From an uncultured Nannocystaceae bacterium (lineage in GTDB: Bacteria; Myxococcota_A; Polyangia; Nannocystales; Nannocystaceae): a stretch of 64,000 nt of DNA. The position numbers and the translations under genes are program-made. Positions 12,098 through 62,977 of this stretch are shown piece by piece. Position 1 is the stretch's first letter. Every line of letters starts with the position of its first letter. The notes under the pieces were generated by a model. It was not told the DNA's origin and ran no database searches. It was given only the letters and a program-made list of their open reading frames with translations. Location: contig CAYXVR010000013.1 of assembly GCA_964468635.1 (NCBI GenBank), forward strand, positions 40,389-104,388, given 5' to 3'.

Positions 12098-12114
12098 CCG
12101 TCCGTCCTGTCTCG

Positions 12115-13173
12115 TCAGTCGGCGTAGAGGTCGAAGTAACCGCGGCGCTCGACGCGGGTGACGGCCTTCACGAGCCCGTCGGTGAACGGCACGTCGCGCA
12201 GGCGCTCGCGCGCGACGGAGATGGTGATGGGCCCGGGTGCGAGCACGGCGAGTGCATCGGCCGGGATCGAGAGCTCGCCGTCGTCGGTCGCGAGGATCGT
12301 GAACATGCGGCCGAAGTCGTCCCACACGCGCACGACGAAGCGGTCGTCGTCGCTGCCCGCTCCGTCCCACGCGAGATCGATCGCGTCGGACTGCGAGAAG
12401 GGCAGCATGTAGTAGTCGAAGTCGGGCGACGTCACCGTGAACTCGGCCGGCGTGTGCACCTGATCCAACAGCACGTTGTCGTCGAACACCTCGCCGCCGT
12501 AGAGCACGATGTCGTAGTCGGTGTCCGGCATCCAGTCGGCGAGCTCGGGCGCGCAGCCGTCGGGCTGCACCATCGACGCGGTCGCGGCATACACCGGGAA
12601 GATGTCGCCGACCATGCCGACCTCGAGCAGGCACGCGAGCGCTTCGGTGTCCGCGACGCGCAGCTTCATCGCGGTGCCGGCGAGCACCCACTCCTCGATG
12701 TCGCCCCAGTCGAACGGCGCGGGCACGTCGTCGTGCTGCACCGCGTCGAGCTCGCCCGCGGGGATGGGGAAGAGCGTCTGCTGCTCGAACACGGCGACGA
12801 AGTCGTCGACGCCGTCCCAGCCGACGTCGGCGATGCGCCACGCGCCCGCCATCGCGGTGCGGTCCTCGCCGATCACGGGATCGGCGAGATAGCGCGTGAA
12901 CGTCAGGATGCCGCGCATGTCGCCCTCGCCGAGCGTCTCCACGCCGGAGGGATCGCCGTCGTCGGTGGGGCCGTCGTCGTCGTCCGCGGTGGCGTCGGCA
13001 TCCGCGTCCGTGCTGTCGGGTCCGTCGTCGTCGCCGTCGTCGTCGTCGGCCGACGTGAAGCCCGACATCGCGTCGTCGCTCGAGCCCTGCTGCGGATCAC
13101 CGTCGTCACCGCAGGCCACGAACGCGAAACCCAGCAGTACGGCGGCCGACGAAGAGCGAGATCCGATCGTCAT
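12115..13173 (-). CDS. Hypothetical secreted lipoprotein.
   Basis: The product starts MTIGSRSSSAAVLLGFAFVACGDDG, a lipobox. The linker SDDAMSGFTSADDDDGDDD is shared with the 8274-10530 product. The remainder is a globular non-repetitive domain. Confidence 0.5.
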   Translation of the reverse strand: MTIGSRSSSAAVLLGFAFVACGDDGDPQQGSSDDAMSGFTSADDDDGDDDGPDSTDADADATADDDDGPTDDGDPSGVETLGEGDMRGILTFTRYLADPVIGEDRTAMAGAWRIADVGWDGVDDFVAVFEQQTLFPIPAGELDAVQHDDVPAPFDWGDIEEWVLAGTAMKLRVADTEALACLLEVGMVGDIFPVYAATASMVQPDGCAPELADWMPDTDYDIVLYGGEVFDDNVLLDQVHTPAEFTVTSPDFDYYMLPFSQSDAIDLAWDGAGSDDDRFVVRVWDDFGRMFTILATDDGELSIPADALAVLAPGPITISVARERLRDVPFTDGLVKAVTRVERRGYFDLYAD

Positions 13174-13331
13174 GGAAGGCAGAGCAGCGAGGCGTCCTTC
13201 GTCGCTGCCCACCGAGGACAGCATCATCGCCCGCACGCCGCAAGGGGAGTTCTGCCACGCGAGCCCGCGCGCGCCTTCGCGCTGACATTTAAGGAGGTGA
13301 CGATGCGTGACGTCACCGCTCCGCGGCCCGT

Positions 13332-14450
13332 TCAGAGACCGCGGTCGCGCAGCCACGCAACGAGTGCGCTGTAGAAGTCGTCGTGCCGCCAGGGATTGGT
13401 GAGGCCGGGCACGTCGCCCAGGAGCTGACCGACCTCGTCGAGGTGATCGGCGGGCACGCAGCCGAGGAACTCGCCCCAGCGGGCGTCCGCCACGCGGACG
13501 AGCCCGTCGTTCGCGACCGGCGCCAACGGGTTGGCCGTGAGGATGGCGCCGGTGACTTCGAGCCCGCCGTCGAGCGCGTCGACGGCCAGTGCGAAGTCCG
13601 CGACGAACGGCGGCGCGTCGTCGATCGCACACTCGGGCCCGCCGAGGTGGTACGCGGACCGGCCGGCGATCGAGGCGTACGCGACGCCCTCCGCGTCCGG
13701 ATAGGCCTCGTTGAACTCGGCGATCCCGGGCGTGGAGAACTGCGCGAGCGACTCGGAGATCGACGTGTTGCCGTCGATCTCCGACCAGAGCGCGCCTCCG
13801 AGCAGCTGGGCGAGCTCGTCCGCGGCGTCCTGGGCCTGCGGATCGGAGACGATGCCGAGGATGATGTCCGCGATCGGCGTGCCGTGGTGCGGCGTCGCGA
13901 CGGTCGTGACGGACGCGACGAGATCCGGTCGCAGGTTCGCGACGACGCGCGCGTCGAGTCCGCCCTGCGAGTGACCGACGAGGTTCACCTTCGCGTGACC
14001 GGTCTCCGCCAGGATCGCCTCGACGTGCGCGATGAGCTGCTCACCGCGCGCGGTGGAGTCGTCGAACGGGTTCACCGCGGGCGTGAAGACGAGCAGCTCG
14101 CCCTCGCTCGCGAGTCGATCGCGCACGCCGAAGAAGTAGGTGACGAAGTCGATCCCCGCGAACGACTCGAAGCCGAAGAAGCCGTGCGCGAAGACGACGG
14201 GGTAGGGCGGGCCGAGCTTCGCGACGTCGCCGGTGCTCGTCTCGTCGACGCCGACGCTGCCGGCCTCGCTGCTCTCGTCGGTCGACTCGTCGACGCCGCC
14301 GTCGTCGACGGGTGCGGTGGTGGCCGGCGGCGCGCCGCTCGTGTCGGCGGTGCCCGTGCTCGAGCCCGCGGCGTCGGACGCCTCGGTCGCATCGCCCGCG
14401 CACGCGGCGAGCGCGACGAGGAGTACCGCAGGCCGACCGAACCACCGCAT
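13332..14450 (-). CDS. Secreted alpha/beta-hydrolase lipase (triacylglycerol-lipase-like) lipoprotein.
   Basis: The product starts MRWFGRPAVLLVALAACAG, a lipobox. AHGFFGF is an oxyanion-hole-like motif and GHSQGG is the nucleophile elbow GxSxG. The ORF-track frame 13332..16370 carries a long spurious N-terminal extension. Confidence 0.65.
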   Translation of the reverse strand: MRWFGRPAVLLVALAACAGDATEASDAAGSSTGTADTSGAPPATTAPVDDGGVDESTDESSEAGSVGVDETSTGDVAKLGPPYPVVFAHGFFGFESFAGIDFVTYFFGVRDRLASEGELLVFTPAVNPFDDSTARGEQLIAHVEAILAETGHAKVNLVGHSQGGLDARVVANLRPDLVASVTTVATPHHGTPIADIILGIVSDPQAQDAADELAQLLGGALWSEIDGNTSISESLAQFSTPGIAEFNEAYPDAEGVAYASIAGRSAYHLGGPECAIDDAPPFVADFALAVDALDGGLEVTGAILTANPLAPVANDGLVRVADARWGEFLGCVPADHLDEVGQLLGDVPGLTNPWRHDDFYSALVAWLRDRGL

Positions 14451-14461
14451 GCGGGCCCAGT

Positions 14462-15031
14462 CTACGTCGATGTCGGCGGATCCGCGAGCCGTGATCGCAT
14501 CGCGCCGGAAAGGCGCGGATCGTCGATCAGCTTGGTCTCGTCCTTGTACGGCACGAAGCCCGCACGTTGATAGACGAGCAGCGCCCGCGGGTGATCGAGC
14601 GAGCACGTGTGCACCCAGACGCGCTCCGGCTCGTGCTGCCACGCGAGCTCGACCGCGTGATCGATGAGGTACACGCCCAGGCCCTCGCCGATGAAGTCCG
14701 GCACGAGCCCGCAGTACGCGAGCTCCACCTCGGGCAGCTTGCGGCAGTCGAGCTCGACGAAGCCCGCGGGGCACCCGTCCGCGTAGAGTACGTAGACCTC
14801 GACGGCATCGTCGTGGACGATGCTCGCGAGCTCGTCGTCGTCCATCACGCGGCGCTCGTACCAGAGCCACGGCGCGCCGACCTTCTCGTAGAGGTAGCGA
14901 TAGAAGTGCAAGGGCGGCTGGATCGCGCGCAGCAGCGCCACGGTGCGCTGCAGCTCGTGGGCGTGGCGGCGGGGTCGTGTGCGCATCTCGAGGTACGTGA
15001 TCGAGACCTCGAGCTTGCCGTCGGCGGTCAT
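14462..15031 (-). CDS. GNAT family N-acetyltransferase.
   Basis: A 189-aa ORF with GNAT-like core segments (YVLYADGCPAGFVEL...GLVPDFIGEGLGVYLIDHAVELAWQ). Confidence 0.6.
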   Translation of the reverse strand: MTADGKLEVSITYLEMRTRPRRHAHELQRTVALLRAIQPPLHFYRYLYEKVGAPWLWYERRVMDDDELASIVHDDAVEVYVLYADGCPAGFVELDCRKLPEVELAYCGLVPDFIGEGLGVYLIDHAVELAWQHEPERVWVHTCSLDHPRALLVYQRAGFVPYKDETKLIDDPRLSGAMRSRLADPPTST

Positions 15032-17610: not shown

Positions 17611-19470
17611 ATGCGTCGCTTCGCGATCGCGCTGGGCCTGTCGACCGCGTGCGGGCACCCCGGTCCGGCCGTGCCCGACGAGGCCCCGGTCGCCGAGCCC
17701 TCCGCGGCGGCGGCGCCCGGGCCCGCGCCGGCCGATGCACCGAGGCCGACCCCTGCGCTCGGTGAGCCCGTCGTGCTCGTGACCGATCCGGCCGTGCTCG
17801 CTCGCATCGAGGGTGCGGGGTGGACGTTCGCGGCGACGGCGTTCGACTCGAGCGCGAGCGACACCGCCGCGCTCGCGAAGGACTCGCACTGGCGCGCGAT
17901 CGTGAAGACGATCGCCGGCGACGTCGCGGCGGTGGGCGCCGGCGATGCGAAGGCGGGCGTGGGGCTGCGCTTCACACATCGATTGTTCGACGTGCGATGG
18001 CTCGAGTCGGAGCGCGCGTGGCTCGAGCTCGTCGGGGTCGTGAATCGGATCGATCGGCGCGTGTTCCATCCCGGCACGTGCGGTGAGACGCGGCTCGTCT
18101 ACCGGCTCGCGCACCGCGCGAAGCAGGGGCGCGAAGAGGTGCGATCGCGGCTGCCGATGACCGTGAACGTCGTGATGTGGCAGCCCGACGACGGGGCGGG
18201 TTGTCGCGACGTCGCGAAGCGCTGGCTCGTGCCGAAGAATGGCGACGTCGCGGAGCGGCTGCTCGCCGACGACGGTCCGCTCGCGGCTTCACGGCGCGGC
18301 GTCGCGGGGCTGAAGTCGATCGAGGTCGACGTGCAGACGTCGCGGTGGCCGGGCACGATCCGGCCGGATCTGGGCGGGCACGCGACGTATCTGCTGCGCG
18401 TGTTCCATCGCGATGGGAAGCGGACGTTCGCCGCGCCGCTCGAGAACACGCCGGACATCGCGCGGCTGCTCGCGTCGAAGCGCGATCGCGAGGCGTTGCT
18501 CGCGTGGATCCGCGAGCCGGCGACGCTCGACGCGATCGATCGCGGCACGGTGCTCATGCCGGATGCGTTCGCGGCGAAGGCCTCGCAGTCGTTCACGCCG
18601 CGGGGGCTCGCGCGGCTCGGCAATCGGCCGTTCTCGCAGCTGGTGTCGGCGCGCGAGCTCGGCGATCTCGCGCTCGAGTCGCGCACGCACGTGAAGTCGC
18701 CGGCGGCGCTCCTGCGCCGGCTCGACGAGCTCACGTGCGCCGGCTGTCACGAGACTCGCAGCATCGCGGGCTTCCATCTGCTCGGCGAAGAGGCGGCGGA
18801 TCTCGATCGCGTGGATGCGCTGAAGGTCGGCTCGTCGCCGCACCTGCTCGGCGATGTGGCCCGTCGCACCGCGTACGTCGCCGCACTCGCGCGCGGTGAG
18901 TCACCCGACGAGGCGCGGCCGCTGGCCGACAGCGATCCCACGCCGGGCGCGTACGGATCGCACTGCGGGCTCGGCGATCCGGGCTTCGCGGCGCTGCGGT
19001 GCAACGACGGCCTGGTGTGCACCGTCATCGACGACCCCGAGCTCGGCACGTGCCTGCCGTCCGCCCGCGGGGCCGGCGATCCCTGCGAGCTCGGAGCGAT
19101 GAAGACGTACGCCGATCCGAGGCGCGACCGGGTGAAGCACGACGACGTGCTCTCGTGCGAGCGCGACGGCGTGTGCGATCGCAACGGCGTCGGCTTCCCG
19201 GCAGGCATGTGCGTCGTCGCGTGCGCGAGCATGACGGACGACGAGGCGTGCGGCGGGATCCCCCAGCTCACCGGCTTCAACAACTGCCTCGCGGCCGGCC
19301 GTCGCTTCGCCGACTGCGTGCGGGAGAACGCGAGCCCCGCCGCGATGCGGTCGTGCGACGTGGATCATCCCTGCCGCGACGACTACATCTGCGCGCAGGC
19401 GGGCGATCGCGGCGTGTGCATGCCCCCGTACTTCCTCTACCAGCTGCGCGTGGACGGGCACCCCGGATAG
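17611..19470 (+). CDS. Lipoprotein with a single CXXCH haem-binding-type motif and a Cys-rich C-terminal region.
   Basis: The start is MRRFAIALGLSTACGH, a lipobox. It contains LTCAGCHETRSIAGFH (CXXCH). The C-terminal 130 aa hold about 16 Cys. The ORF-track entry 16708..19470 includes a spurious 5' extension. Confidence 0.55.
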   Translation: MRRFAIALGLSTACGHPGPAVPDEAPVAEPSAAAAPGPAPADAPRPTPALGEPVVLVTDPAVLARIEGAGWTFAATAFDSSASDTAALAKDSHWRAIVKTIAGDVAAVGAGDAKAGVGLRFTHRLFDVRWLESERAWLELVGVVNRIDRRVFHPGTCGETRLVYRLAHRAKQGREEVRSRLPMTVNVVMWQPDDGAGCRDVAKRWLVPKNGDVAERLLADDGPLAASRRGVAGLKSIEVDVQTSRWPGTIRPDLGGHATYLLRVFHRDGKRTFAAPLENTPDIARLLASKRDREALLAWIREPATLDAIDRGTVLMPDAFAAKASQSFTPRGLARLGNRPFSQLVSARELGDLALESRTHVKSPAALLRRLDELTCAGCHETRSIAGFHLLGEEAADLDRVDALKVGSSPHLLGDVARRTAYVAALARGESPDEARPLADSDPTPGAYGSHCGLGDPGFAALRCNDGLVCTVIDDPELGTCLPSARGAGDPCELGAMKTYADPRRDRVKHDDVLSCERDGVCDRNGVGFPAGMCVVACASMTDDEACGGIPQLTGFNNCLAAGRRFADCVRENASPAAMRSCDVDHPCRDDYICAQAGDRGVCMPPYFLYQLRVDGHPG

Positions 19471-19484
19471 CGTATTCTCCGCCC

Positions 19485-21206
19485 GTGGATCGGCAGCCGC
19501 CGCGCGCTTCCAGCAACGAGATCGACCTCTACGTGCGCACGTACTACTCGCTGTTGCGCAGCAGTGGCGACGTGCGGGTGCGCGCGTTCGAGGAGGCGCA
19601 CGCGTACAGCGACTCGAGCCTGCACTCGGGCGCGCGCGAGCCGTTGCCGGACGTCGCCGCGTTCGCCTATGCGGCGGCGCGATTGCCCGCGTGCATGCCC
19701 GACCTCGAGCGGCTGGTGATCGGGCAGAGCAACGAGCAGTTCGAGGCGCAGGGGCTCGCCGTGCGCTCATGGGATCCGGTCGTCACCCGCGGGCGTCGGC
19801 GACCGCTGCGGTGGGACGGGCGCGGCACGCTCGCGGTGTACGTGAGCAGCGCGTCGGACATCGACGACCTCGTGCCCATCGTCACTGCGTGGCAGATCGA
19901 GTGGAACAAGATGCACACGGCGCTGTCGCGCTCTCCCGAGCGCGAGCTGTTGCTCGGACCGGCGTCGGCCGACGCGCTCGCGATGGCGCTCGGCACCGCG
20001 CTCGGCATCTCCGCCGACGACATCGGCGTGCTCCGCGGGGCGTTCGCCGGCACCTTCGCGCGCGCGGTGAATCTACTGGCAGCGCGGCCCACCGATCTCA
20101 CGGTGCGACTGCTCGCGGGCACGCTGCTCGAGTACCGACGCGCGTCGCAGCGGTGGTGGAGCGGCATCGAGAGCGGCTACGCGCGCCCGAGCGAGCGCCC
20201 GCGTCCGGTGTACTTCGTGTCGTCGAACACGCACGCGATGCCCAACCTGCTCGCCGGATACGCGCGAGCCCATCGCGACGAGATGCTCGCGTTCATCCGC
20301 CAGCACGACGCCGAGGCGCTCGCCGACGACGTCGATCACGCGATCGAGCGCGGCGACGACGACGAGCTCGCGAACCTCTCCTACTACCTCTTGCGGCAGT
20401 CGCTACGCTTCGACCCCGACGGCACGCGGCTGAAGACGGTGCAGGCGTGGGACGAGGGCAGCGGTGTCACGACGCTGCGCGATCCGGGCCAGCTCGACGT
20501 CGCGGCGCAGCTCGTGGAGCTGCGGCGGCTGCAACCCGATCGGCTGGACCCGCGCGTGCGCGTGCCCGGGGTCGAGCGGCTCGCGGACTCCGACGCCGTG
20601 ATCATCAACATCGACTACCCGCTCGGCATGGCGGCGTACCACCACCTCACGCGCCTCGCCGAGGGCGTGGGCGAGATCCGCGGCGTGTACGTGATGGGCA
20701 AGGCCGCGACGCTGAACGGCCGCGTCGGCGACGTGATGGTGTCCACCGTGGGCTACGACGAGCACTCGCAGAACACGTACCTGTTCCGCAACTGCTTCGC
20801 GTCCGGCGACGTGCAGCCGTGGACGAAGGCGACCGTGCTCGACAACCAGAAGGCGCTCACGGTGCGCGGATCCTTCCTGCAGAACCGCGAGTACATGCAG
20901 GTGTTCTACCGCGAGGGCTACACCGTGCTCGAGATGGAGGCTGGCCCGTACCTGTCGGCGATCTACGAGCTCGTGCATCCCAAGCGCCATCCGCGGGACG
21001 AGATCGTGCACCTGTCGAACCTCGTGCCGTTCGACTTCGGGCTGCTCCACTACGCGTCGGACACGCCGTACTCGCGGCGCCAGACGCTCTTGTCGAAGAG
21101 CCTGTCGTACTTCGGCATGGACAGCACGTACGGGTGCGCAATCGCGATCGTGCGCCGCATCCTGTCCACCGAAGTCGCGCGGCTGTCGGCGCCCGTTGTA
21201 CCGTAG
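19485..21206 (+). CDS. Hypothetical protein with a C-terminal phosphorylase-superfamily-like (PNP/MTAN-type) fold signature.
   Basis: The frame is that of ORF 18999..21206. The first plausible start is a GTG 15 nt after the upstream stop, so the N-terminus is uncertain. The C-terminal segment AVIINIDYPLGMAAYHHLTRLAEGVGEIRGVYVMGKAATLNGRVGDVMVSTVGYDEHSQN resembles nucleoside-phosphorylase family cores. Confidence 0.45.
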   Translation: MDRQPPRASSNEIDLYVRTYYSLLRSSGDVRVRAFEEAHAYSDSSLHSGAREPLPDVAAFAYAAARLPACMPDLERLVIGQSNEQFEAQGLAVRSWDPVVTRGRRRPLRWDGRGTLAVYVSSASDIDDLVPIVTAWQIEWNKMHTALSRSPERELLLGPASADALAMALGTALGISADDIGVLRGAFAGTFARAVNLLAARPTDLTVRLLAGTLLEYRRASQRWWSGIESGYARPSERPRPVYFVSSNTHAMPNLLAGYARAHRDEMLAFIRQHDAEALADDVDHAIERGDDDELANLSYYLLRQSLRFDPDGTRLKTVQAWDEGSGVTTLRDPGQLDVAAQLVELRRLQPDRLDPRVRVPGVERLADSDAVIINIDYPLGMAAYHHLTRLAEGVGEIRGVYVMGKAATLNGRVGDVMVSTVGYDEHSQNTYLFRNCFASGDVQPWTKATVLDNQKALTVRGSFLQNREYMQVFYREGYTVLEMEAGPYLSAIYELVHPKRHPRDEIVHLSNLVPFDFGLLHYASDTPYSRRQTLLSKSLSYFGMDSTYGCAIAIVRRILSTEVARLSAPVVP

Positions 21207-21209
21207 GGC

Positions 21210-22607
21210 ATGCTCACTGCCCTGGGTCTCGTCGTGCTCGCCGCGCTGCCGGAGCAGTCGGTGGACGATCCGCAGTCGGTCACGGGTGGTGCCGACGCGA
21301 TGGAGTGCGCGTGGGTCGACACGGTCGCCGTCACCGGCGGTGGTGGCCTGTGCACCGGCGCGCTCGTGCATCCGCGCGTCGTCACGTATGCGGCGCACTG
21401 CGGCGACGGCGAGAAGGTGATTCGCTTCGGGCAGTCGGACAGCGGCGACGGGCTCGGGCAGACGGCCGCGACCTCGTTCTGTCGGATCAATCCCGAGTAC
21501 GTCGGCGTCTCCAACCAGGGCCAGGACTGGGCGTTCTGCGTGCTCGAGGAGCCGATCACGGAGATCCCGTTCACGCCGCCCTTGTACGGCTGCGAGCTCG
21601 ACGTGCTCGAGGCGGGGCTCGAGGTGTACATCGCGGGGTTCGGCGACGAGGTGGGTACCGGTGGTGCGGGCACGAAGCGGTGGGCGCAGACCACCGTGAT
21701 CTCGACGTTCGGCAACACGGCGACGATCGGCGGCGGCGGCGTGTCGACGTGCATGGGCGACTCGGGCGGCTCGGCGTTCGTGCTGATGGACGACGGCACG
21801 CTGCGTGCGATCTCGATGGTGTCCACCGGCACGGACTGCGGCAACGCGGGCGTGCACGCGCTCATGCATCCGGCGGTGCCGTGGATCGAGACGGAGGCGC
21901 AGATCGACATCACGCCGTGCCACGACGTCGACGGCACGTGGAATCCGACGTCGATGTGTACGGGCTTCTATGCCGGCAACGAGGTCGGGCACGGCACGTG
22001 GGAGGAGTGGTGTCCGGGCACGCCGATCGGGGGCGCGAGCGACACGTGCGGAGCGACGTTCGACGCCGAGGACGACGCCGATCCCCCGACGGTCGCGATC
22101 ACGTCGCCCGCCGACGGCGAGGAGATCGACGACGGATCGAACGTGACCATCGCGATCGATGCGGCCGATCCGGGATGGGGCGTGCGCCACGTGTGGATCG
22201 AGATCGACGGCATGGATCTCGGCGCGCGCGACGAGTACCCGCCGTACGAGTTTGCCGCGCTGCAGTTCCCTGACGGCATCTACGAGATCCGGGCGACGGC
22301 CGAGGACTGGGCGGGCAACGTCGCGATGTCGGAGACGATCACGATCGGCGTGGGCATGCCGGTGCCGAGCGACGAGGACACCGGCGATCCGGACGGCAGC
22401 ACGAGCGCGGACGACGGCGACACGACGAGCGCGACGGATCCGGACGACGACGACGACGACGAGAGCGACGACGACGACGGCGACAGCACGGGCCCGGACC
22501 AGACCGACGACGGTGGCGGCGGGGGGTGCACGTGCCGTGCGTCGGGCCCCGGCGCTGCGCCGTGGCTGCTGCTCCCCATCCTCTATAGAAGGATCCGGAG
22601 GCGCTGA
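21210..22607 (+). CDS. Trypsin-like (S1) serine protease with an Ig-like domain and a MYXO-CTERM sorting tail.
   Basis: The product has TYAAHCG (catalytic His) and CMGDSGGSAF (GDSGG catalytic Ser). The C-terminus GGGGGCTCRASGPGAAPWLLLPILYRRIRRR fits the MYXO-CTERM pattern of a Cys pair, a hydrophobic stretch and an Arg tail. Confidence 0.7.
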   Translation: MLTALGLVVLAALPEQSVDDPQSVTGGADAMECAWVDTVAVTGGGGLCTGALVHPRVVTYAAHCGDGEKVIRFGQSDSGDGLGQTAATSFCRINPEYVGVSNQGQDWAFCVLEEPITEIPFTPPLYGCELDVLEAGLEVYIAGFGDEVGTGGAGTKRWAQTTVISTFGNTATIGGGGVSTCMGDSGGSAFVLMDDGTLRAISMVSTGTDCGNAGVHALMHPAVPWIETEAQIDITPCHDVDGTWNPTSMCTGFYAGNEVGHGTWEEWCPGTPIGGASDTCGATFDAEDDADPPTVAITSPADGEEIDDGSNVTIAIDAADPGWGVRHVWIEIDGMDLGARDEYPPYEFAALQFPDGIYEIRATAEDWAGNVAMSETITIGVGMPVPSDEDTGDPDGSTSADDGDTTSATDPDDDDDDESDDDDGDSTGPDQTDDGGGGGCTCRASGPGAAPWLLLPILYRRIRRR

Positions 22608-23161
22608 TGCCGTTCATCGAGACGATCGCGCCCGAGCGCGCCGAGGGCTTGTTGAAGCGGATCTACGACGCGGCCATCCGCCGCGCCGGCAAGGTCTTCG
22701 CCGTGGTGCGGGTGCAGAGCCGCCAGCCCCGCGTGCTCGAGGCCTCGATGGAGCTCTACGTGCGAGCGATGCACGCGAAGGACGAGCCGCTGACGCGTGC
22801 GCAACGCGAGCTGCTCGCGACCTACGTGTCGATGATCAACGACTGCGAGTATTGACTGCGCGCGCACGCCGACGACCTCCGTGCCGAGGTCGCAAACCGC
22901 CCCGACGCCATCACCATCGCCGATACCCTCGAGCGCCGCGAAGTGCCGTCGCTTCCCCCGAACGACACGGCACTGCTCGCCTTCGCCGACAAGCTCACGC
23001 GCACGCCCTCGGCGATCCGCCAGCCCGACATCGACGCGCTGCGCGCCCACGGCTTCGACGACGCCGCGATCTCGCACGCGGTACAGGTGATCGCCCTCTT
23101 CGCCTACTACAACCGCATCGCCGACGGCCTCGGCATCCACACCCACGACGACGCAAAGTGA
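22607..23161 (+). CDS. AhpD-like / carboxymuconolactone-decarboxylase-family peroxidase-related protein interrupted by an in-frame TGA at 22853-22855. Either a selenoprotein candidate (CxxU) or a pseudogene.
   Basis: ORFs 22607..22855 and 22943..23161 are in the same frame. Translating through the TGA gives ...MINDCEY[TGA]LRAHADDLRAEVANRPDAITIADTLERREVPSLPPNDTALLAF..., which places the TGA at the second Cys of the AhpD catalytic CxxCxxxH motif. A 7-bp-stem hairpin lies at 22873-22892. Confidence 0.5.
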
Positions 23162-23212
23162 CGTCGGCCCACTTCTGGCGACTCGAGATGGATCGCTGCC
23201 ATCGCGCTTCCG

Positions 23213-24049
23213 TCAGCATTCGTCTTGCAGCGGGAGCAGTGGGTCGTCGGTGCGCGGACTCCTCGGCGAGCCGAGGGTGCTCCGATCGCGGTGATCGGTC
23301 TCTGCCGAATCAAGATGTCGGCGTGAGGTCGCAGAACCCGCGATCGGTCCGCGGTGCGGAGCCGCATCTCTCGCGGCTCGCTTGCGCGAGGCCTTCGTCG
23401 CAGGCCCATGCTTCCCCGGCACGGCGTCGACGTCGAGCAGGCCGAGGCGGCGCCAGCCCTCGCGCAGGAGCCACGATTGCGGTGGCGAGGTGCCGTAGTC
23501 GGCGAAGCGATGCTCCGTCGCGGGCGGCTCGCTCCAGCCGTCGAAGATCGCCGCAGTGCTGCGGGGATCGATCCAGCATCGGGGAAGCACCACGCCGCGC
23601 TGCGCCGCGTGGTGTCGCGCGTTCGACAGCACGTAGTGGAGGGCATTGCGCACCTCCGTCGGCGTCGTCAGCTCGCGCGCGTGATAGCGACCCGCGACCA
23701 CGGGGCCTCTCCGCCCGAAGCAGCCGTTGATCGACTTCGCGAAACGCGTGCAGAAGGTCTGCATCCCGAGCGCGAGGCCTTCGCGGCTGTCGCTCTCCAC
23801 CATCTGATGCATGTGCTCACGCTGCACGGAGTAGTGCACGAACCGAGTGGGCGTCCGCCCTCGCACGGCCGTGAACGTGCGCACGATGGCCGCCCACGCG
23901 GCGGGCTGCCGCAGGTCGGGAACATCGTCGCGCACCCGGATGGTGACGATCAGTGGGTTGTACGAACGCACGCGTGGTCGCACGGCGTGCGGCACCATCG
24001 GTCTCGCGCTCGCTCGCTTGCGCCCAGCACCCTTGCGCGCGCCACCCAC
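23213..24049 (-). CDS. IS200/IS605-like (Y1 HUH, RAYT-like) transposase.
   Basis: The HUH motif is EHMHQMV. The catalytic Tyr context is TEVRNALHYVLSNARHH. Size and composition fit Y1 transposases. Confidence 0.55.
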   Translation of the reverse strand: MGGARKGAGRKRASARPMVPHAVRPRVRSYNPLIVTIRVRDDVPDLRQPAAWAAIVRTFTAVRGRTPTRFVHYSVQREHMHQMVESDSREGLALGMQTFCTRFAKSINGCFGRRGPVVAGRYHARELTTPTEVRNALHYVLSNARHHAAQRGVVLPRCWIDPRSTAAIFDGWSEPPATEHRFADYGTSPPQSWLLREGWRRLGLLDVDAVPGKHGPATKASRKRAARDAAPHRGPIAGSATSRRHLDSAETDHRDRSTLGSPRSPRTDDPLLPLQDEC

Positions 24050-24224
24050 GTCGGCAACTCGAGCTCGAGCTGCTTTGCGATCTTCCTACGCTTCGATTCC
24101 ATCGCGCTCATCTACTGCATCGAAGGAAGACGTCAAGGATGAATCGAGTCGTCGTGCACTTTTTCTTCCTCTTCGATCCTCCGTCGCCGACACGAGACGT
24201 TCGATGTCTGCCGAATCAAGATGG
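23301..24224. mobile_element. Putative IS unit: the RAYT-like gene bounded by 17-bp direct repeats TCTGCCGAATCAAGATG.
   Basis: Identical 17-mers occur at 23301-23317 and 24208-24224. Both are followed by similar G/C-rich sequence (gtcggcg versus ggcgagc). The left copy lies inside the 3' end of the transposase ORF. Confidence 0.35.
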
Positions 24225-24280
24225 CGAGCAGTCTCTCGCGAGCGCGATGCCGCTGCGGCGAGAACACTCGTCGCGTCGAT

Positions 24281-29911: not shown

Positions 29912-30149
29912 GCCGAGCGTGCCGAGATGGAACCATGTCATGCTCGCGCAGAGGCCGCGACAGCGCTGCCGCCGACGCGGTCCTGCGACTGGAATGCGTC
30001 CGATCGCGGTCCGGTTCGACGAACGAGAAGGGCAACGGCCGAGGTCGGTATCGACGTCGCCGGTGGATCTGTGAGAGCCTCCGATCCCCGTCGAGCGCGA
30101 GATGCCCCACCGGCTCTCGTGGCTGGAGCGCGATCGCAGGCGGACGACG

Positions 30150-30899
30150 ATGGACGATTTCCTGGCGGCTAGCCTGAGCTTCCCGACCGTGGTCTTCACG
30201 GTCCTCCTGCTGATCGCGCTGCTCTATTGGGTGCTCGTGATCGTCGGCGCGCTCGGGGTCGACATGCTCGACCTCGATCAAGGCCACGACGGTGCGGGTC
30301 ACGGGCCCGACGTCGGCGTCGATCATGGAGCCGATCACGGCGGCGATGGCGGAGACGGAGACGCCGGACACGACGGCGACGCCCACCACGGCCACAGCGG
30401 CGAAGGGCTCGGCCTGCTGCCCACGATGTTGTGGGTGCTCAAGCTGAACTCGGTGCCGATGACCATCGTGCTCACGATGGTCTTCTTCTGGTCGTGGCTC
30501 GCGTGCCACCTCGCGATGCACTACGTCGTCGGTTACGAGGCGCACTGGATCGCGGAGGTCGGACTCTTCGCGGGTGCGCTGCTGTTGTCGTTGCCACTGT
30601 CGTCGGTGACGGTCCGCCCGCTCGCGCCCCTGTTCCGCACGCACCCTGGTCAGCGTCGTGCCGCACTGCTCGGCAAGATCGTCGACGTCGACACGAGCTA
30701 CGTCGACGACAAGTTCGGCGTCGCGAAGGTCGACGACGGCGGTGCCGGTTTGCTCGTGCAGATCCGCTGCGATCCCCCGAATCCCCTCACCCGTGGTCAG
30801 CGCGCGCTCGTCGTCAGCTACGACGAAGCGCGCGAGGTCTACGAGGTCACCCCCATCGACGATTTGATCCCCTCGGACAAGGCCACCCGTCCGGACTAG
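30150..30899 (+). CDS. NfeD-like / YqiJ-family inner-membrane protein, the flotillin partner.
   Basis: The start is MDDFLAASLSFPTVVFTVLLLIALLYWVLVIVGALGV. A His/Asp/Gly-rich loop follows, then two more TM segments. The C-terminal domain is OB-fold-like (FGVAKVDDGGAGLLVQIRCD...ALVVSYDEAREVYEV). The gene ends 22 nt before the flotillin gene. Confidence 0.65.
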   Translation: MDDFLAASLSFPTVVFTVLLLIALLYWVLVIVGALGVDMLDLDQGHDGAGHGPDVGVDHGADHGGDGGDGDAGHDGDAHHGHSGEGLGLLPTMLWVLKLNSVPMTIVLTMVFFWSWLACHLAMHYVVGYEAHWIAEVGLFAGALLLSLPLSSVTVRPLAPLFRTHPGQRRAALLGKIVDVDTSYVDDKFGVAKVDDGGAGLLVQIRCDPPNPLTRGQRALVVSYDEAREVYEVTPIDDLIPSDKATRPD

Positions 30900-30920
30900 C
30901 GAGTCAGCTCAGAGGTCGAC

Positions 30921-33080
30921 ATGCCAGATTTCACGGTCATCACGATCATCGCCATCGCCGGAGCGGGCGTCGTCCTCCTGCTCGGCTCCCTCGTCCTGGT
31001 CATGAAGTTCTACCGGCAGGTGGACCAGGGCAAGGCGCTCATCATCAACAAGATGGGCAAGGAGCCCACCGTCACGTTCACCGGCGGTACGGTCGTGCCA
31101 GTGATCCATCGCGCCGAGGTCATGGACATCTCGGTGAAGAGCAACGAGATCTCGCGTACCGGCAAGGACGGCCTGATCTGCAAGGACAACATCCGTGCGG
31201 ACATCAAGGTCACGTTCTTCGTGCGCGTGAACAAGACGGTCGAGGACGTGCTCAAGGTCGCGCAGACGATCGGGTGCGCGCGCGCGTCGGATCCCGAGAC
31301 GCTCGAGACGCTCTTCTCCGCGAAGTTCTCCGAGGCGCTCAAGACCGTGGGCAAGCGCTTCGAGTTCGAGGAGCTCTACACGAAGCGCCACGAGTTCAAG
31401 GAGCAGATCCTCACCGTCATCGGGCAGGACCTGAACGGCTACGTGCTCGACGACTGCGCGATCGACTACCTCGAGCAGACGCCGCTCGCGTCGCTCGACC
31501 CGCACAACATCCTGGACGCGCAGGGTATCCGCAAGATCACGGACATCACGGCCGCGCAGAACATCGCCACCAACGACCTCCGCAAGGAGGAGGAGAAGGC
31601 GATCAAGAAGAAGAACACCGAGGCGGCCGAAGCGATCATGGAGCTCGATCGCCAGCAGGCCGACGCGCAGTTCAAGCAGATGCGCGAGATCGCGAGCGTG
31701 AAGGCGCGCGAGGAGGCCGAGGCGGCCCGCATCCAGGCCGAGGAGCGCAAGAAGTCCGAGAGCGCGCGCATCCTCGTGGACGAAGCGCTGGCCGTGGCCG
31801 AGGAGAACAAGCGCCGCCAGATCGAGGTGGCGGTGAAGAACCGCGAGCGCGTCGTGCTCGTCGAGCACGAGAAGGTCATCAAGGAGCAGCAGCTCGAGGC
31901 CATCGGCCGCGAGCGCGAGACCGAGCTCAAGCGCATCGAGAAGGAGAAGGCGCTCGAGGTCCAGAAGAAGGAGATCGCGGACGTCATCCGCGGCCGCGTG
32001 GCGGTCGACAAGACCGTCGCGGAAGAGGAGGAGCGCATCAAGGACCTCCGCACCGTCGCTGCGGCGAAGCGCGAGAAGGACGCGAAGGTCATCGGGGCCG
32101 AGGCCGAGGCCGAGCAGGAGCTCGTGAAGAGCATCAAGGCCGCGCAGGCGGCAGAAGAGGCCGCGCGCTTCGAGGCGAAGCAGAAGCTCGTGCTCGCCGA
32201 CGCCGATCTCGAAGCGTCGGATCGCATCGCCCGCGCGAAGATGCGGCTCGCCGAGGGCACGCAGGCCGAGCAGGCCGCGCCCGGCCTGGCGACGGTGAAG
32301 GTGAAGGAGGCCGACGCGGCCGCGGTGGAGAAGGTCGGCGCCGCCGAGGCGCGCGTGATGCTGCAGAAGATGGAGTCCGAGGCGAAGGGCCGCGAGACCC
32401 AGGGCCTCGCGCTCGTGAAGGTGAAGGAGGCCGAAGCGGCCGCGACCGAGAAGACCGGCGCCGCCGAGGCGAGCGCGCGTCGCGAGATGCTGCTCGCGGA
32501 GGCGACGGGCAAGGAAGCCGACGCCGGTGCCACCGAGAAGATGGCGCACGCGAAGGCGGCCGAGGTGCGCGAGGCGTTGCTGGCCGAGGCCACCGGCCTC
32601 GAGCAGAAGGCCCAGGCGATGAAGATGCTCGACCAGGAGACGCGGGCGCACGAGGAGTTCCGCCTCCGTCTCGATCGCCACATGCAGATCGCGCTGCAGG
32701 AGCTCGCGACCCGCAAGGACGTCGCCCATGCGCAGGCCGAGGTGCTCGCGCAGGCGATGGCGAACGCGAAGATCAACATCGTCGGCGGCGACGGCGAGTT
32801 CTTCCAGCGCTTCGTCCACGCGGTGTCGCTGGGCACTGCGCTCGACGGCGCGGTGGGGCAGAGCGAGACGGCGCAGAAGCTGCTGGGCGGCTACCTCGAT
32901 GGCAGTCAGAGCTTCACCGAGGACGTGAAGAGCGTGCTGCAGCGGCCCGCGATCGACAGCGAGGCGATGAAGAACCTCAGCATCACCGCGGTGCTCAGCC
33001 AGATGCTCTCCAAGATGGAGGACGGTCAGCGCACGAAGATGCAGAATCTGATCGTGAAGGCGAAGGAGCTGGGCCTGTAA
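30921..33080 (+). CDS. Flotillin (SPFH/band-7 domain protein, YqiK/FloT-like).
   Basis: An N-terminal TM (ITIIAIAGAGVVLLLGSLVLV) is followed by an SPFH domain. After that comes a long Glu/Ala/Lys-rich repeat region (EAEAARIQAEERKK..., AEAEAEQELVK...) and a conserved flotillin C-terminal segment. Confidence 0.8.
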   Translation: MPDFTVITIIAIAGAGVVLLLGSLVLVMKFYRQVDQGKALIINKMGKEPTVTFTGGTVVPVIHRAEVMDISVKSNEISRTGKDGLICKDNIRADIKVTFFVRVNKTVEDVLKVAQTIGCARASDPETLETLFSAKFSEALKTVGKRFEFEELYTKRHEFKEQILTVIGQDLNGYVLDDCAIDYLEQTPLASLDPHNILDAQGIRKITDITAAQNIATNDLRKEEEKAIKKKNTEAAEAIMELDRQQADAQFKQMREIASVKAREEAEAARIQAEERKKSESARILVDEALAVAEENKRRQIEVAVKNRERVVLVEHEKVIKEQQLEAIGRERETELKRIEKEKALEVQKKEIADVIRGRVAVDKTVAEEEERIKDLRTVAAAKREKDAKVIGAEAEAEQELVKSIKAAQAAEEAARFEAKQKLVLADADLEASDRIARAKMRLAEGTQAEQAAPGLATVKVKEADAAAVEKVGAAEARVMLQKMESEAKGRETQGLALVKVKEAEAAATEKTGAAEASARREMLLAEATGKEADAGATEKMAHAKAAEVREALLAEATGLEQKAQAMKMLDQETRAHEEFRLRLDRHMQIALQELATRKDVAHAQAEVLAQAMANAKINIVGGDGEFFQRFVHAVSLGTALDGAVGQSETAQKLLGGYLDGSQSFTEDVKSVLQRPAIDSEAMKNLSITAVLSQMLSKMEDGQRTKMQNLIVKAKELGL

Positions 33081-33098
33081 ACGAAGGGGCACCTTCGC

Positions 33099-48459: not shown

Positions 48460-49311
48460 TCAACATCGCGCGAGGGGAGGGAGCACGAGGTCAGCCGTGT
48501 CGACGAACGGCCCCCGCACCATGAACACGTCCATCGGCTCGAGCGGCCGGGTGGACCAGCGGCCGCCGACGCGATCGGGGCCGAACAGCAGCTCGACGGC
48601 GTCGATGCGGCCCGGCACGCGCGCGACGATCTCCGCGATGCTCGGCAGCTCCCGTGCGACGACGTCGTAGATCTGCAGCACGTGCGCGTCGTCGAGATCG
48701 CACGCGACGACGGCGTCGAGATCGTCCGCCCACCACAGCCGCCGGAAGCCAGCGCAGCCGAGCACCTCGTCCATGACGAAGAGCGGGCCGGCCTCGCCCA
48801 CGCCGAGCACGTGCGACACGGGAGTGCGCCCCGCGAACGCAGCGAGCACGCGTGCGACGTCGTCGGCGGCCGCGTCGGACAGGCGCCGCATCGGCGTCGC
48901 CTTCGGAGTCCGCGGCGCATCCGCCACGAACGCGACCTGGGGAACGTCGCGGAAGCCGAACCGGCGATACAGCGCGGCGTCGTTCGCGTGCAGGACGACG
49001 AGCTCGTAGGAGGCATCGGCGTGGGCGAGGGCCGCTTCGAGCACGCGGCGCGCGAGCCCGCGGCCACGGTGTTCCGGGGCCGTGCATACGGCGTGCACGC
49101 CCGCCGCGAGCAGGGCGCGTCCGTCCAGCACGAGCGGGATCTCGAGCACACCGGCGTGGGCGACGACCCGACCGCCCTCGAGCGCCATGAACGGCGTGGA
49201 CATCTCGTGCCAGCGCGCACCGAGTCGCGCCGACGTGGGGATCGCCGTCGCGAGCCTGGGCCAGACGCGCGAGAGCAGCTCGATCACCGAAGGCCAGTCG
49301 ATCGATTCCAC
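48460..49311 (-). CDS. GNAT family acetyltransferase (two-domain, Eis-like architecture possible).
   Basis: The GNAT motif-A-like segment is VCTAPEHRGRGLARRVLEAALAH. The protein is 283 aa long. Confidence 0.55.
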   Translation of the reverse strand: MESIDWPSVIELLSRVWPRLATAIPTSARLGARWHEMSTPFMALEGGRVVAHAGVLEIPLVLDGRALLAAGVHAVCTAPEHRGRGLARRVLEAALAHADASYELVVLHANDAALYRRFGFRDVPQVAFVADAPRTPKATPMRRLSDAAADDVARVLAAFAGRTPVSHVLGVGEAGPLFVMDEVLGCAGFRRLWWADDLDAVVACDLDDAHVLQIYDVVARELPSIAEIVARVPGRIDAVELLFGPDRVGGRWSTRPLEPMDVFMVRGPFVDTADLVLPPLARC

Positions 49312-49338
49312 GGGCGGAGATGGTAACCTGCGCGCGTC

Positions 49339-60067: not shown

Positions 60068-60162
60068 GCCGCATCCTTTATCACGGCAGGCCCCCCCAGG
60101 GCGCAGGACCCGCGCCGTACTCGCTTGCGCGGCCGCAGCCGTGACTGTATGAGTGCGCGCCG

Positions 60163-62019
<1,857 letters not shown>

Positions 62020-62868: not shown

Positions 62869-62977
62869 CATGCCCCATCGTACCGGTCGCCCCATCCGAA
62901 CGGGGTCCGGCGCGCGTGCGATCAAAGGCGGGTGGCTTACCTCGCCGTCACCCTTCGCGGTATCGTCCGGCTCGCGC

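What the first reader, a model, noticed from the sequence alone, without database searches (positions are those of the whole stretch)
22607..23161. In-frame TGA at the catalytic Cys of an AhpD-like CxxCxxxH motif, with a downstream stem-loop. Selenocysteine candidate versus pseudogene.
ORFs 22607-22855 and 22943-23161 share one frame. Read through the TGA at 22853-22855, the protein is ...NDCEY-[UGA]-LRAHADD... AhpD uses Cys130, Cys133 and His137 (CxxCxxxH), so the UGA sits exactly where the second redox Cys belongs, giving CxxUxxxH. The UGA is followed by C, a weak termination context. An RNA hairpin with a 7-bp stem (CGACCUC / GAGGUCG) and a 6-nt loop CGUGCC starts 17 nt downstream, at 22873-22892. 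That distance is compatible with bacterial SECIS elements. AhpD-like selenoproteins are a known bacterial selenoprotein family. The alternative is a recent nonsense mutation or a sequencing error.
Basis: partly seen in the sequence, partly recalled or inferred. Interest (0 to 1): 0.7.

Follow-up and report, generated by a model that had tools for sequence, protein, structure and literature searches.

The report
AhpD-like selenoprotein gene with SECIS hairpin

Summary
Window 22607-23161 (+) is one 184-codon gene. Codon 83 is TGA (22853-22855), in the motif C80-E-Y-U83-L-R-A-H87.

The protein passes NCBIfam TIGR01926 "peroxidase-related enzyme" (124 bits, cutoff 81.8). A 2026 review lists that same model as the "AhpD-like protein, CxxU" selenoprotein family, first described in 2005.

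- **Conserved TGA:** five close relatives (77-87% identical; three are Nannocystaceae MAGs) and a Thermoanaerobaculia MAG have TGA at the same codon. So do 75 of 77 metagenome relatives found with a probe that excluded the hairpin region. More distant homologues have Cys there.
- **Translated downstream half:** it is under purifying selection (dN/dS 0.24-0.44), like the upstream half.
- **Hairpin 22873-22892:** alone it folds no better than shuffled sequence. Across 78 sequences it sits at a fixed distance, pairs in 93% of cells, shows compensatory changes, constrains synonymous codons (p down to 6e-32), and meets all four published bacterial SECIS criteria.
- **Sec machinery:** some relatives have tRNA-Sec, selB or selD next door. 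The window has none, so whether this genome has the machinery is untested.

Verdict: real selenoprotein gene, a new member of a known family, low novelty.

The parts
22597..22601 (+). Shine-Dalgarno-like GGAGG, 5 nt upstream of the ATG
   Evidence: Read directly from the sequence. This is an inference from consensus and was not tested.
22607..23161 (+). Complete AhpD-like selenoprotein gene: 184 codons including Sec83, plus the terminal TGA at 23159-23161. The ATG at 22607 overlaps the TGA stop (22605-22607) of the upstream trypsin-like gene by one base.
   Evidence: GC3 0.93 and 0.91. TIGR01926 scores 124.1 bits against a cutoff of 81.8. PF02627 CMD scores 39.3 against 23. All six close orthologues start MPFI....
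22808..22810 (+). Glu68 codon (GAG), the equivalent of Glu118 in the M. tuberculosis AhpD proton relay
   Evidence: It lies 12 residues before the first Cys, the same spacing as Glu118/Cys130 and Glu36/Cys48. The 'RE' is conserved in alignment A1.
22844..22846 (+). Cys80 codon (TGC), the first (resolving-type) Cys of the CxxU motif
   Evidence: It aligns with the first Cys of CxxC in the solved homologues 6k40, 2oyo and 2prr.
22853..22855 (+). UGA codon 83, read as selenocysteine
   Evidence: TGA is at the homologous codon in L001-L006 and in 75 of 77 metagenome loci, and Cys is there in L007, L009 and L011. It aligns with the second Cys of CxxC in solved structures.
22856..22872 (+). 17-nt spacer between the UGA and the stem. 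It also encodes L-R-A-H87-A-D.
   Evidence: The 54-nt alignment of 78 sequences is ungapped, so the spacing is fixed across the family. The His87 codon is 22865-22867.
22873..22892 (+). SECIS hairpin: 5' arm 22873-22879 (CGACCUC), loop 22880-22885 (CGUGCC), 3' arm 22886-22892 (GAGGUCG). It overlaps the codons for (D)DLRAEV(A).
   Evidence: 93.2% of cells pair, against 30-51% in slid registers, and no shuffle out of 500 reaches this. Pair 21-40 is C-G in 40 and G-C in 23. Pair 24-37 is C-G in 57 and U-A in 12. RNAalifold finds the same helix. Synonymous codons are constrained. Free energy is -11.8 kcal/mol. Loop position 2 is G in 78 of 78, and position 3 is G or U in 78 of 78. It meets the four bSECIS criteria quoted.

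Best explanation
Window 22607-23161 (+) is a single gene for a 184-residue selenoprotein. It belongs to the AhpD-like 'peroxidase-related enzyme' family (TIGR01926, CMD/AhpD fold).

Decoding. Codon 83 (UGA, 22853-22855) is decoded as selenocysteine. The hairpin at 22873-22892 has a 7-bp stem and a loop C-G-U-G-C-C, and starts 17 nt after the UGA. It acts as a bacterial SECIS: it binds SelB.GTP.Sec-tRNA(Sec) and delivers it to the UGA in competition with release factor 2.

Chemistry. The product carries the redox centre Cys80-x-Tyr-Sec83 with His87 and Glu68. This is the same constellation and spacing as the AhpD proton relay. Sec takes the place of the exposed nucleophilic Cys (Cys133 of M. 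tuberculosis AhpD). The selenolate most likely attacks an oxidised thiol (sulfenic acid or disulfide) on a peroxiredoxin-type partner, or a hydroperoxide directly. Cys80 would then resolve the intermediate into an intramolecular Se-S bond, which an unidentified reductant re-reduces.

What is shown and what is inferred.
- Shown here: the gene structure, family membership, conservation of the UGA, translation of the downstream half, and selection on the RNA structure.
- Inferred: that the inserted residue is Sec, SelB binding, and the chemistry and its partner.
For: 1. Family. TIGR01926 scores 124.1 bits (cutoff 81.8) and PF02627 scores 39.3 (cutoff 23). The 2026 review PMC13188914 lists 'AhpD-like protein | TIGR01926 | CxxU' as a selenoprotein family. 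It was first reported in PMC1088965 with 27 sequences and the CXXU motif. 'AhpD-like 1' was the fourth most abundant family in GOS, with 299 genes (PMC2398784).

2. Sec/Cys pair. TGA is at the same codon in L001 (87% identical), L003-L005 (Nannocystaceae MAGs, 77%), L006 (Thermoanaerobaculia MAG) and L002. TGT (Cys) is there in L007. TGA occurs in 75 of 77 metagenome loci recovered with a probe made only from the C-terminal 60 residues. Database gene calls break exactly at this codon.

3. Translation past the UGA. dN/dS of the downstream half is 0.24-0.44, against 0.19-0.40 upstream, at dS of about 0.4-0.6. There are no frame breaks in six orthologues.

4. SECIS.
- Fixed spacing and covariation in two stem pairs.
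- Leu+8 is CUC in 75 of 76, against 45% CUC/CUU elsewhere in the same genes (p = 3e-24).
- The loop Arg is CGG or CGU in 75 of 75, against 37% background, and never CGC (p = 6e-32).
- All four bSECIS constraints are met.
- The Cys forms have weak hairpins of -3.5 to -6.5 kcal/mol.

5. Link to the machinery. selD and selB lie directly downstream of the family member in L066, and selB is adjacent in L072 and L054. tRNA-Sec lies within about 1.3-1.7 kb in L072, L034 and L042.

6. TGA is the ordinary stop of most genes in the window: 21 of 29 GC3-supported frames. The genetic code is therefore standard.

7. Active site. CxxC...H of the solved homologues aligns on C80..U83...H87.
Against: - No selA, selB, selD or tRNA-Sec is present in the 64-kb window, and the rest of the genome could not be searched.
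- No paper found addresses selenium use in Nannocystaceae. The only support at phylum level is Anaeromyxobacter.
- The hairpin of this sequence alone is not distinguishable from shuffles, and no Rfam family matches it even at E <= 10.
- The other '(seleno)protein'-type gene in the window (UshA-like, 51431-53290) uses Cys, so nothing else in the window shows Sec use.
- No ahpC or peroxiredoxin partner is adjacent, and synteny is not conserved beyond the closest relative. The physiological reaction is therefore inferred only from homology.
- There is no experimental evidence of selenium incorporation.
Confidence: 0.92

Rival explanations
1. The gene is a pseudogene or artefact. The TGA is a recent nonsense mutation or sequencing error, or the lineage has recently lost Sec decoding, so only the 82-residue N-terminal fragment (or nothing useful) is made.
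For: No Sec machinery is in the window. The single-sequence hairpin is not significant. The exact proteins of this genome are not in the public collection, so the assembly could not be cross-checked.
Against: The same TGA is present in five other close orthologues and in 75 of 77 more distant relatives. The downstream half shows purifying selection equal to the upstream half and has no frame breaks. GC3 is 0.91 downstream. The SECIS in this allele is intact and identical to the family consensus.
Confidence: 0.03
2. The UGA is read through, but not as selenocysteine. Possibilities are near-cognate Trp or Cys insertion, or a reassigned TGA as in genetic codes 4 and 25, with the hairpin acting only as a read-through stimulator.
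For: Some source annotations translate the site as W or G (P0001, P0003, P0004, P0009, P0010 and P0008). Selenium incorporation was not measured.
Against: The W in P0001 is simply TGA read under another table. TGA terminates most genes of the window, so it is not reassigned. The hairpin fits the SelB-type SECIS model, including the G-[G/U] loop rule. Homologues have Cys, not Trp or Gly, at the site. Family members sit beside selB, selD and tRNA-Sec.
Confidence: 0.04
3. These are two separate small genes (22607-22855 and 22943-23161) with an intergenic regulatory hairpin such as an attenuator or terminator.
For: Mechanical ORF listing gives two ORFs. Many database entries are half-length proteins.
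Against: Conservation and coding signal begin at the codon immediately after the TGA, not at 22943. One CMD/TIGR01926 domain spans both halves: residues 12-181 match profile positions 11-177 of 178. The catalytic His87 lies between the TGA and 22943. Full-length Cys homologues and solved structures are single chains. No terminator-like site was found on this strand.
Confidence: 0.01

Closest known systems
AhpD-like selenoprotein family (COG2128 / TIGR01926, CxxU motif). Zhang, Fomenko and Gladyshev 2005 (PMC1088965); 'AhpD-like 1' in GOS 2008 (PMC2398784); listed in PMC13188914 and BSepDB (PMC13326102).
   Same: Same HMM family above its cutoff. Same CxxU motif with Sec at the second position. 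A SECIS-type hairpin with G in the apical loop directly downstream. Cys homologues are widespread.
   Different: Nothing substantive. This copy is from a Nannocystaceae-like (Myxococcota) genome, a lineage for which I found no published selenoprotein report. The codon-level demonstration that the SECIS dictates the D-L-R-A-E-V peptide was done here, and I did not find it in the papers read.
Mycobacterium tuberculosis AhpD (TIGR00777; relay Glu118, Cys130, His132, Cys133, His137)
   Same: Same CMD/AhpD fold superfamily. Identical spacing E-(11)-C-x-x-C/U-x-x-x-H. Sec occupies the position of the exposed nucleophile Cys133.
   Different: It scores only 25.1 bits against a cutoff of 191.95 on TIGR00777, so it is not an AhpD orthologue. 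It has Tyr instead of His132, as in PA0269. The motif is in the N-terminal half of the chain. There is no adjacent ahpC. It has Sec instead of Cys.
Solved Cys-form 'peroxidase-related' proteins: 6k40 (named alkyl hydroperoxide reductase AhpD in the PDB), 2oyo, 2prr, 3c1l, 2pfx
   Same: These are the closest solved relatives (E = 8e-19 to 6e-14), alignable over about 165 residues. CxxC...H is in register with C80..U83...H87.
   Different: All have Cys at the Sec position. None has the DLRAEV peptide or the hairpin (for example HGAALREF in 6k40).
Bacterial SECIS consensus (bSECISearch model) and the E. coli fdhF SECIS
   Same: A stem-loop inside the coding region just 3' of the UGA. A small apical loop with G followed by G or U in the first positions. 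16-37 nt from the UGA to the loop. Free energy at or below -7.5 kcal/mol. All are met.
   Different: The primary sequence is unrelated to fdhF. From my own knowledge, the minimal fdhF element sits about 11 nt from the UGA and has a bulged U. Here the spacer is 17 nt and the 7-bp stem has no bulge. SelB binding was not tested.
Sister Sec-containing CMD families in NCBIfam: NF041238 AhpD_rel_CFYUT and NF053654 YciW-related (seleno)protein
   Same: Same superfamily, with Sec at the second position of CxxU.
   Different: Scores of 72.4 (cutoff 175) and 27.1 (cutoff 310) are well below the cutoffs. It is not a member of either.

Membership tests
AhpD-like selenoprotein (TIGR01926, CxxU) | Protein matches the TIGR01926 'peroxidase-related enzyme' model above its curated cutoff | tested here: met
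   124.1 bits against a cutoff of 81.8. Residues 12-181 match profile positions 11-177 of 178. PF02627 scores 39.3 against 23.
AhpD-like selenoprotein (TIGR01926, CxxU) | In-frame UGA aligned with the second Cys of the CxxC motif of Cys-containing homologues (a Sec/Cys pair) | tested here: met
   Cys is at the site in L007 (CEYC), P0011 (CYYC), L009 and L011, P0029, and in 6k40, 2oyo and 2prr. TGA is at the site in 81 loci.
AhpD-like selenoprotein (TIGR01926, CxxU) | The reading frame continues past the UGA and is maintained by selection | tested here: met
   dN/dS is 0.24-0.44 downstream against 0.19-0.40 upstream in six orthologues, with no stops or frameshifts. GC3 is 0.91.
AhpD-like selenoprotein (TIGR01926, CxxU) | Conserved AhpD-type catalytic constellation (Glu, Cys, Cys/Sec, His) | tested here: met
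   Glu68, Cys80, Sec83 and His87 have the spacing of Glu118, Cys130, Cys133 and His137. This is by sequence alignment only. No structure was modelled.
AhpD-like selenoprotein (TIGR01926, CxxU) | The host genome encodes selA, selB, selC (tRNA-Sec) and selD | not testable with these tools
   None is in the 64-kb window. Indirect support: relatives sit next to selD and selB (L066), selB (L072, L054) and tRNA-Sec (L072, L034, L042).
AhpD-like selenoprotein (TIGR01926, CxxU) | Selenium is actually incorporated at the UGA | not testable with these tools
   This needs 75Se labelling or mass spectrometry.
Bacterial SECIS (bSECISearch consensus, as quoted in PMC13188914) | Apical loop of 3-9 nt and upper stem of 4-16 bp | tested here: met
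   6-nt loop and 7-bp stem.
Bacterial SECIS (bSECISearch consensus, as quoted in PMC13188914) | G in one of the first two loop positions, usually followed by G or U | tested here: met
   The loop is C-G-U-G-C-C. Across 78 sequences, position 2 is G in 78 and position 3 is G in 49 and U in 29. CGC and CGA codons are never used.
Bacterial SECIS (bSECISearch consensus, as quoted in PMC13188914) | [quoted passage not shown] | tested here: met
   24 nt (22856-22879). This is identical in all 78 sequences, because the alignment is ungapped.
Bacterial SECIS (bSECISearch consensus, as quoted in PMC13188914) | Minimum free energy at or below -7.5 kcal/mol | tested here: met
   -11.8 kcal/mol for the 24-nt element in the window. 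68 of 78 family members pass within the same fixed 24-nt slice, with a median of -11.3.
Bacterial SECIS (bSECISearch consensus, as quoted in PMC13188914) | The structure is maintained by selection (covariation). This is not part of the published model but is the proper test of a functional RNA. | tested here: met
   Pair 21-40 is C-G in 40 and G-C in 23. Pair 24-37 is C-G in 57 and U-A in 12. 93.2% of cells pair, against at most 51% in slid registers, and no shuffle out of 500 reaches this.
Canonical AhpD (TIGR00777, partner of AhpC) | Matches the AhpD subfamily model above its cutoff | tested here: not met
   25.1 bits against a cutoff of 191.95. It works like AhpD by motif, but it is not an AhpD orthologue.
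Canonical AhpD (TIGR00777, partner of AhpC) | Encoded next to ahpC | tested here: not met
   The neighbours are a trypsin-like protease, DUF6909, an unassigned ORF and a patatin-like lipase. No peroxiredoxin was hit among the window ORFs scanned.
NF041238 AhpD_rel_CFYUT / NF053654 YciW-related (seleno)proteins | Score above the curated cutoff | tested here: not met
   72.4 against 175, and 27.1 against 310.

The most novel reading that the evidence does not exclude
The Sec-form clade of TIGR01926 may carry one ancient SECIS that is almost invariant at the nucleotide level. It is shared across Myxococcota, Acidobacteriota and many unassigned lineages, and it imposes the peptide D-L-R-A-E-V on the enzyme. 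Under this reading, the rare Cys forms with a decayed stem and a lost first Cys (STRYC; L009, L011) would be Sec-to-Cys revertants. In Nannocystaceae-type myxobacteria this gene might be one of very few selenoproteins that justify keeping the whole Sec machinery.
Probability: 0.3. Interest if true: 0.35.

Novelty: new member of a known kind. Interest (0 to 1): 0.2.

Why it matters
The value is mainly practical.

- **Annotation:** automatic gene callers split or mistranslate this gene. The protein database holds dozens of half-length fragments that break at this codon, and some full-length calls have W or G at the site. Without a Sec annotation, the gene in this genome would probably be recorded as a fragment or pseudogene.
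- **Genome prediction:** recognising the gene marks the genome as a likely selenium user. It predicts that selA, selB, selC and selD lie elsewhere in the genome.
- **Example of dual coding:** the family shows clearly that an RNA signal inside a coding region can dictate both codon choice and a conserved peptide.

It does not change what is known about selenoproteins.

Tried and rejected
- **Rfam.** At gathering thresholds on the whole window, and at E <= 10 on 22780-22980, it gave nothing. I believe, from memory and without checking, that Rfam has no general bacterial SECIS model, so I do not count this as evidence against.
- **Single-sequence folding.** It gave z = -0.07, so I did not use it as evidence.
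- **tRNA scan of the window.** No tRNA at all.
- **Search for sel genes in the window.** The only hit is the GTPase domain of TypA at 60145-62019.
- **Exact-protein look-ups to identify the source genome.** All three failed: the 82-aa fragment, the patatin-like protein and the trypsin-like protein.
- **First genome scan.** I repeated it with the single protein.
- **Literature on Sec use in Myxococcota or Nannocystaceae.** I found only Anaeromyxobacter.
- **Conserved operon partner.** Rejected. Only L001 shares the flanking genes.
- **The UshA-like '(seleno)protein' hit at 51431-53290 as a second selenoprotein.** Rejected. It is the Cys form (APCGC) and scores below the cutoff.
- **Structure prediction.** Not run, because the sequence matches to solved structures (E down to 8e-19) already place the motif.
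Full report
**1. The observation**

The sequence is as described.
- An ATG at 22607 opens a frame that meets TGA at 22853-22855. A GGAGG lies 5 nt upstream of the ATG, and the ATG overlaps the upstream gene's TGA by one base.
- The same frame continues without interruption to TGA at 23159-23161.
- Read through, the product is 184 residues with ...INDC80-E-Y-[UGA83]-L-R-A-H87-A-D-D-L-R-A-E-V...
- The base after the UGA is C.
- The hairpin CGACCUC / CGUGCC / GAGGUCG lies at 22873-22892, 17 nt after the UGA.
- Both halves have the third-position G+C typical of real genes here: 0.93 and 0.91, against 0.70 overall.
- A scan of the whole window found no other in-frame TGA with coding signal on both sides.

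One part of the observation does not stand alone. Folded by itself, the region is no more stable than shuffled sequence (z = -0.07).

**2. What the protein is**

With Cys substituted at the UGA, the protein passes NCBIfam TIGR01926 'peroxidase-related enzyme' (124.1 bits, cutoff 81.8) and Pfam PF02627 CMD. It falls far below the cutoffs for canonical AhpD (TIGR00777: 25 against 192) and for two sister '(seleno)protein' models, NF041238 and NF053654.

The closest solved structures are Cys-form 'AhpD / peroxidase-related' proteins: 6k40, 2oyo, 2prr, 3c1l and 2pfx, with E from 8e-19 to 6e-14. Their C-x-x-C-x-x-x-H aligns exactly on C80..U83...H87.

The AhpD proton relay is Glu118, Cys130, His132, Cys133 and His137 in M. 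tuberculosis. In PA0269 it is Glu36, Cys48, Tyr50, Cys51 and His55 (PMC3141380). The window protein has Glu68, Cys80, Tyr82, Sec83 and His87 with identical spacing. In M. tuberculosis AhpD the second Cys (Cys133) is the exposed residue that attacks AhpC (PMC6626918). The UGA therefore sits at the nucleophile position.

**3. Is the TGA conserved?**

A protein search returned an unusual pattern.
- N-terminal fragments end exactly at '...C-x-Y' (P0007 at 87% identity, P0013, P0018, P0069).
- About fifty fragments of 101-111 residues start one codon later ('M/V-RAHADDLRAEV').
- JGI full-length calls have W or G at the site.

The DNA of one W case (L002) has TGA there.

In a scan of named genomes, three Nannocystaceae MAGs (77% identity) and a Thermoanaerobaculia MAG have TGA at the same codon. 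A Flavobacteriales homologue has TGT, giving CEYC.

To avoid circularity, I seeded a metagenome scan with only the C-terminal 60 residues, which lie outside the hairpin. Of the 77 loci where the site could be aligned, 75 have TGA. The other two have TGC, and both are 'STRYC' forms that also lack the first Cys.

TGA is also the normal stop codon of most genes in the window, so the genetic code is standard.

**4. Is the downstream half translated?**

I compared the window and five close orthologues (L001, L003-L005, L008), at synonymous divergence of about 0.4-0.6. The half after the TGA has dN/dS of 0.24-0.44. That is indistinguishable from the half before it (0.19-0.40), and no orthologue has a stop or frameshift. 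This rules out a recent nonsense mutation, a sequencing error, or an untranslated tail.

**5. Is the hairpin a functional RNA?**

The 54 nt starting at the TGA align without a single gap in 78 distinct sequences, so the spacing is fixed.
- **Pairing.** No shuffle out of 500 reaches the observed pairing or covariation.
- **Covariation.** Two pairs show clear compensatory change. Columns 21-40 are C-G in 40 sequences and G-C in 23. Columns 24-37 are C-G in 57, U-A in 12 and U-G in 3. RNAalifold finds the same helix independently.
- **Codon choice.** The stem encodes D-L-R-A-E-V, so I compared codon choice inside the stem with the same amino acids elsewhere in the same genes.
  - Leu is CUC in 75 of 76, against 45% CUC/CUU in the background (p = 3e-24).
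  - Val is GUC or GUU in 50 of 52, against 58% (p = 2e-9).
  - Glu is GAG in 76 of 77, against 78% (p = 2.5e-7).
  - The loop Arg is CGG or CGU in 75 of 75, against 37% (p = 6e-32). It is never CGC, which is the commonest Arg codon in these genes.
- **Published criteria.** That last result is the published loop rule. The bacterial SECIS model quoted in PMC13188914 requires a 3-9 nt loop, a 4-16 bp stem, a G in the first two loop positions usually followed by G or U, 16-37 nt from the UGA to the loop, and free energy at or below -7.5 kcal/mol. The window element has 6 nt, 7 bp, C-G-U, 24 nt and -11.8 kcal/mol.
- **Cys forms.** They lack the DLRAEV peptide and have weak hairpins of -3.5 to -6.5 kcal/mol.

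**6. Sec machinery**

The window has no tRNA and no selA, selB or selD. The source genome could not be identified by exact protein look-up.

Indirect evidence is favourable.
- In other lineages, family members are physically linked to the machinery. selD and selB lie directly downstream in L066, and selB is adjacent in L072 and L054. tRNA-Sec lies about 1.3-1.7 kb away in L072, L034 and L042.
- Within the same phylum, Anaeromyxobacter is a documented Sec user (PMC1794560).
- The selection results in sections 4 and 5 would be hard to explain if these genomes did not decode the UGA.

**7. Comparison with what is known**

AhpD-like CxxU selenoproteins (COG2128) were reported from the Sargasso Sea in 2005 (27 sequences). 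'AhpD-like 1' was the fourth most abundant selenoprotein family in GOS (299 genes). They are listed as 'AhpD-like protein, TIGR01926, CxxU' in a 2026 review, and they have their own page in BSepDB.

The window gene meets every sequence-level criterion for that family. It is not an orthologue of canonical AhpD and has no ahpC neighbour. 'Works like AhpD' is therefore an inference from the motif.

**8. Verdict**

The feature is a genuine selenoprotein gene (confidence about 0.92), but of a family known for two decades. It is a new member of a known kind, with low interest (0.2).

The residual doubt is whether this genome carries the Sec machinery, and selenium incorporation has not been shown. 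Both are simple to settle with the whole genome or with mass spectrometry.

Noticed in passing
L002:606-608; proteins P0001, P0003, P0004, P0009, P0010 (W at the site) and P0008 (G at the site): Public (JGI) gene calls for relatives translate the Sec-TGA as Trp or Gly, as if genetic code 4 or 25 had been applied. Other callers split the gene into fragments of about 82 aa and about 105 aa. This is a systematic annotation artefact for the family.
   Followed up: partly
L066:2953-4951; L072:1241-1333 and 4528-5727; L054:2126-2611; L034:178-270; L042:347-441: In some metagenome lineages the AhpD-like TGA gene sits beside Sec machinery. selD and selB lie directly downstream in L066. selB is adjacent in L072 and L054. 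tRNA-Sec (anticodon UCA) lies within about 1.3-1.7 kb in L072, L034 and L042.
   Followed up: partly
L009:823 and L011:137 (TGC at the site): The only two Cys-form relatives in the metagenome sample have also lost the first Cys (S-T-R-Y-C). They keep a weakened version of the same stem: L009 has GAUUUC...GAGGUC at -6.5 kcal/mol. This looks like a decaying SECIS after a Sec-to-Cys change.
   Followed up: partly
L065:2222 and L066:1761: A divergent subgroup encodes G/D-F-G-Q/R-E-S instead of D-L-R-A-E-V. It still forms a 7-bp hairpin, shifted by one base (GGACUUC / GGUCG / GGAGUCC, -10.9 kcal/mol). The RNA is conserved although the peptide is not.
   Followed up: partly
window 51431-53290 (+), with 49191-51557 (+) upstream: This ORF matches NF041198 'UshA-like (seleno)protein' (184.5 bits, below the cutoff of 275). 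It carries the Cys form of the motif (APCGC) and has a C-terminal multihaem cytochrome c554-type domain. The ORF before it is a cytochrome b with a sub-threshold match to the ExtP cytochrome of the selenite/tellurite reduction operon.
   Followed up: partly
window 23162-24280, ORF 23213-24049 (-): About 1.1 kb separates the AhpD-like gene from the patatin-like gene here. In the closest relative, L001, the two genes abut (L001 2123 and 2120). The extra DNA holds a 278-aa ORF with no Pfam or NCBIfam match. From memory, it resembles an HUH-type (IS200/RayT-like) transposase. It may be a recent insertion.
   Followed up: partly
window 21210-22607 (+): The upstream gene encodes a trypsin-like protease with a bacterial Ig domain, an Asp-rich low-complexity stretch and a C-terminal GGGGCTCRASG...LLLPILYRR tail. 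From memory, the tail resembles the myxobacterial MYXO-CTERM sorting signal. Its TGA stop overlaps the ATG of the selenoprotein gene (TGATG). Apart from a partial match in L001, it was not found next to the gene in the more distant orthologues.
   Followed up: partly
window 18999-21206 (+): A large protein that matches DUF6909 end to end (681 bits). Its function is unknown.
   Followed up: no
window 30075-38474 (+): Three consecutive long open frames in the same reading frame (30075-30899, 30900-33080, 33081-38474). GC3 is very high (0.87-0.95) and GC2 is unusually low (0.37-0.43). None has an NCBIfam match.
   Followed up: no
window 62594-64000 (+): An ORF that runs off the end of the window. 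Its best match is to the 2Fe-2S/Mo-binding N-terminal part of xanthine dehydrogenase-type molybdoenzymes, and the top hit is the 'selenium-dependent xanthine dehydrogenase' model (167.7 bits, cutoff 830). This is far below the cutoff, so it is not evidence of selenium use.
   Followed up: no
window 8274-14462: This stretch of about 6 kb was skipped by my GC3/GC2 gene filter. It has long minus-strand ORFs, one of which (10526-12841) matches DUF1501. It has no sel genes and no notable tandem repeats.
   Followed up: partly
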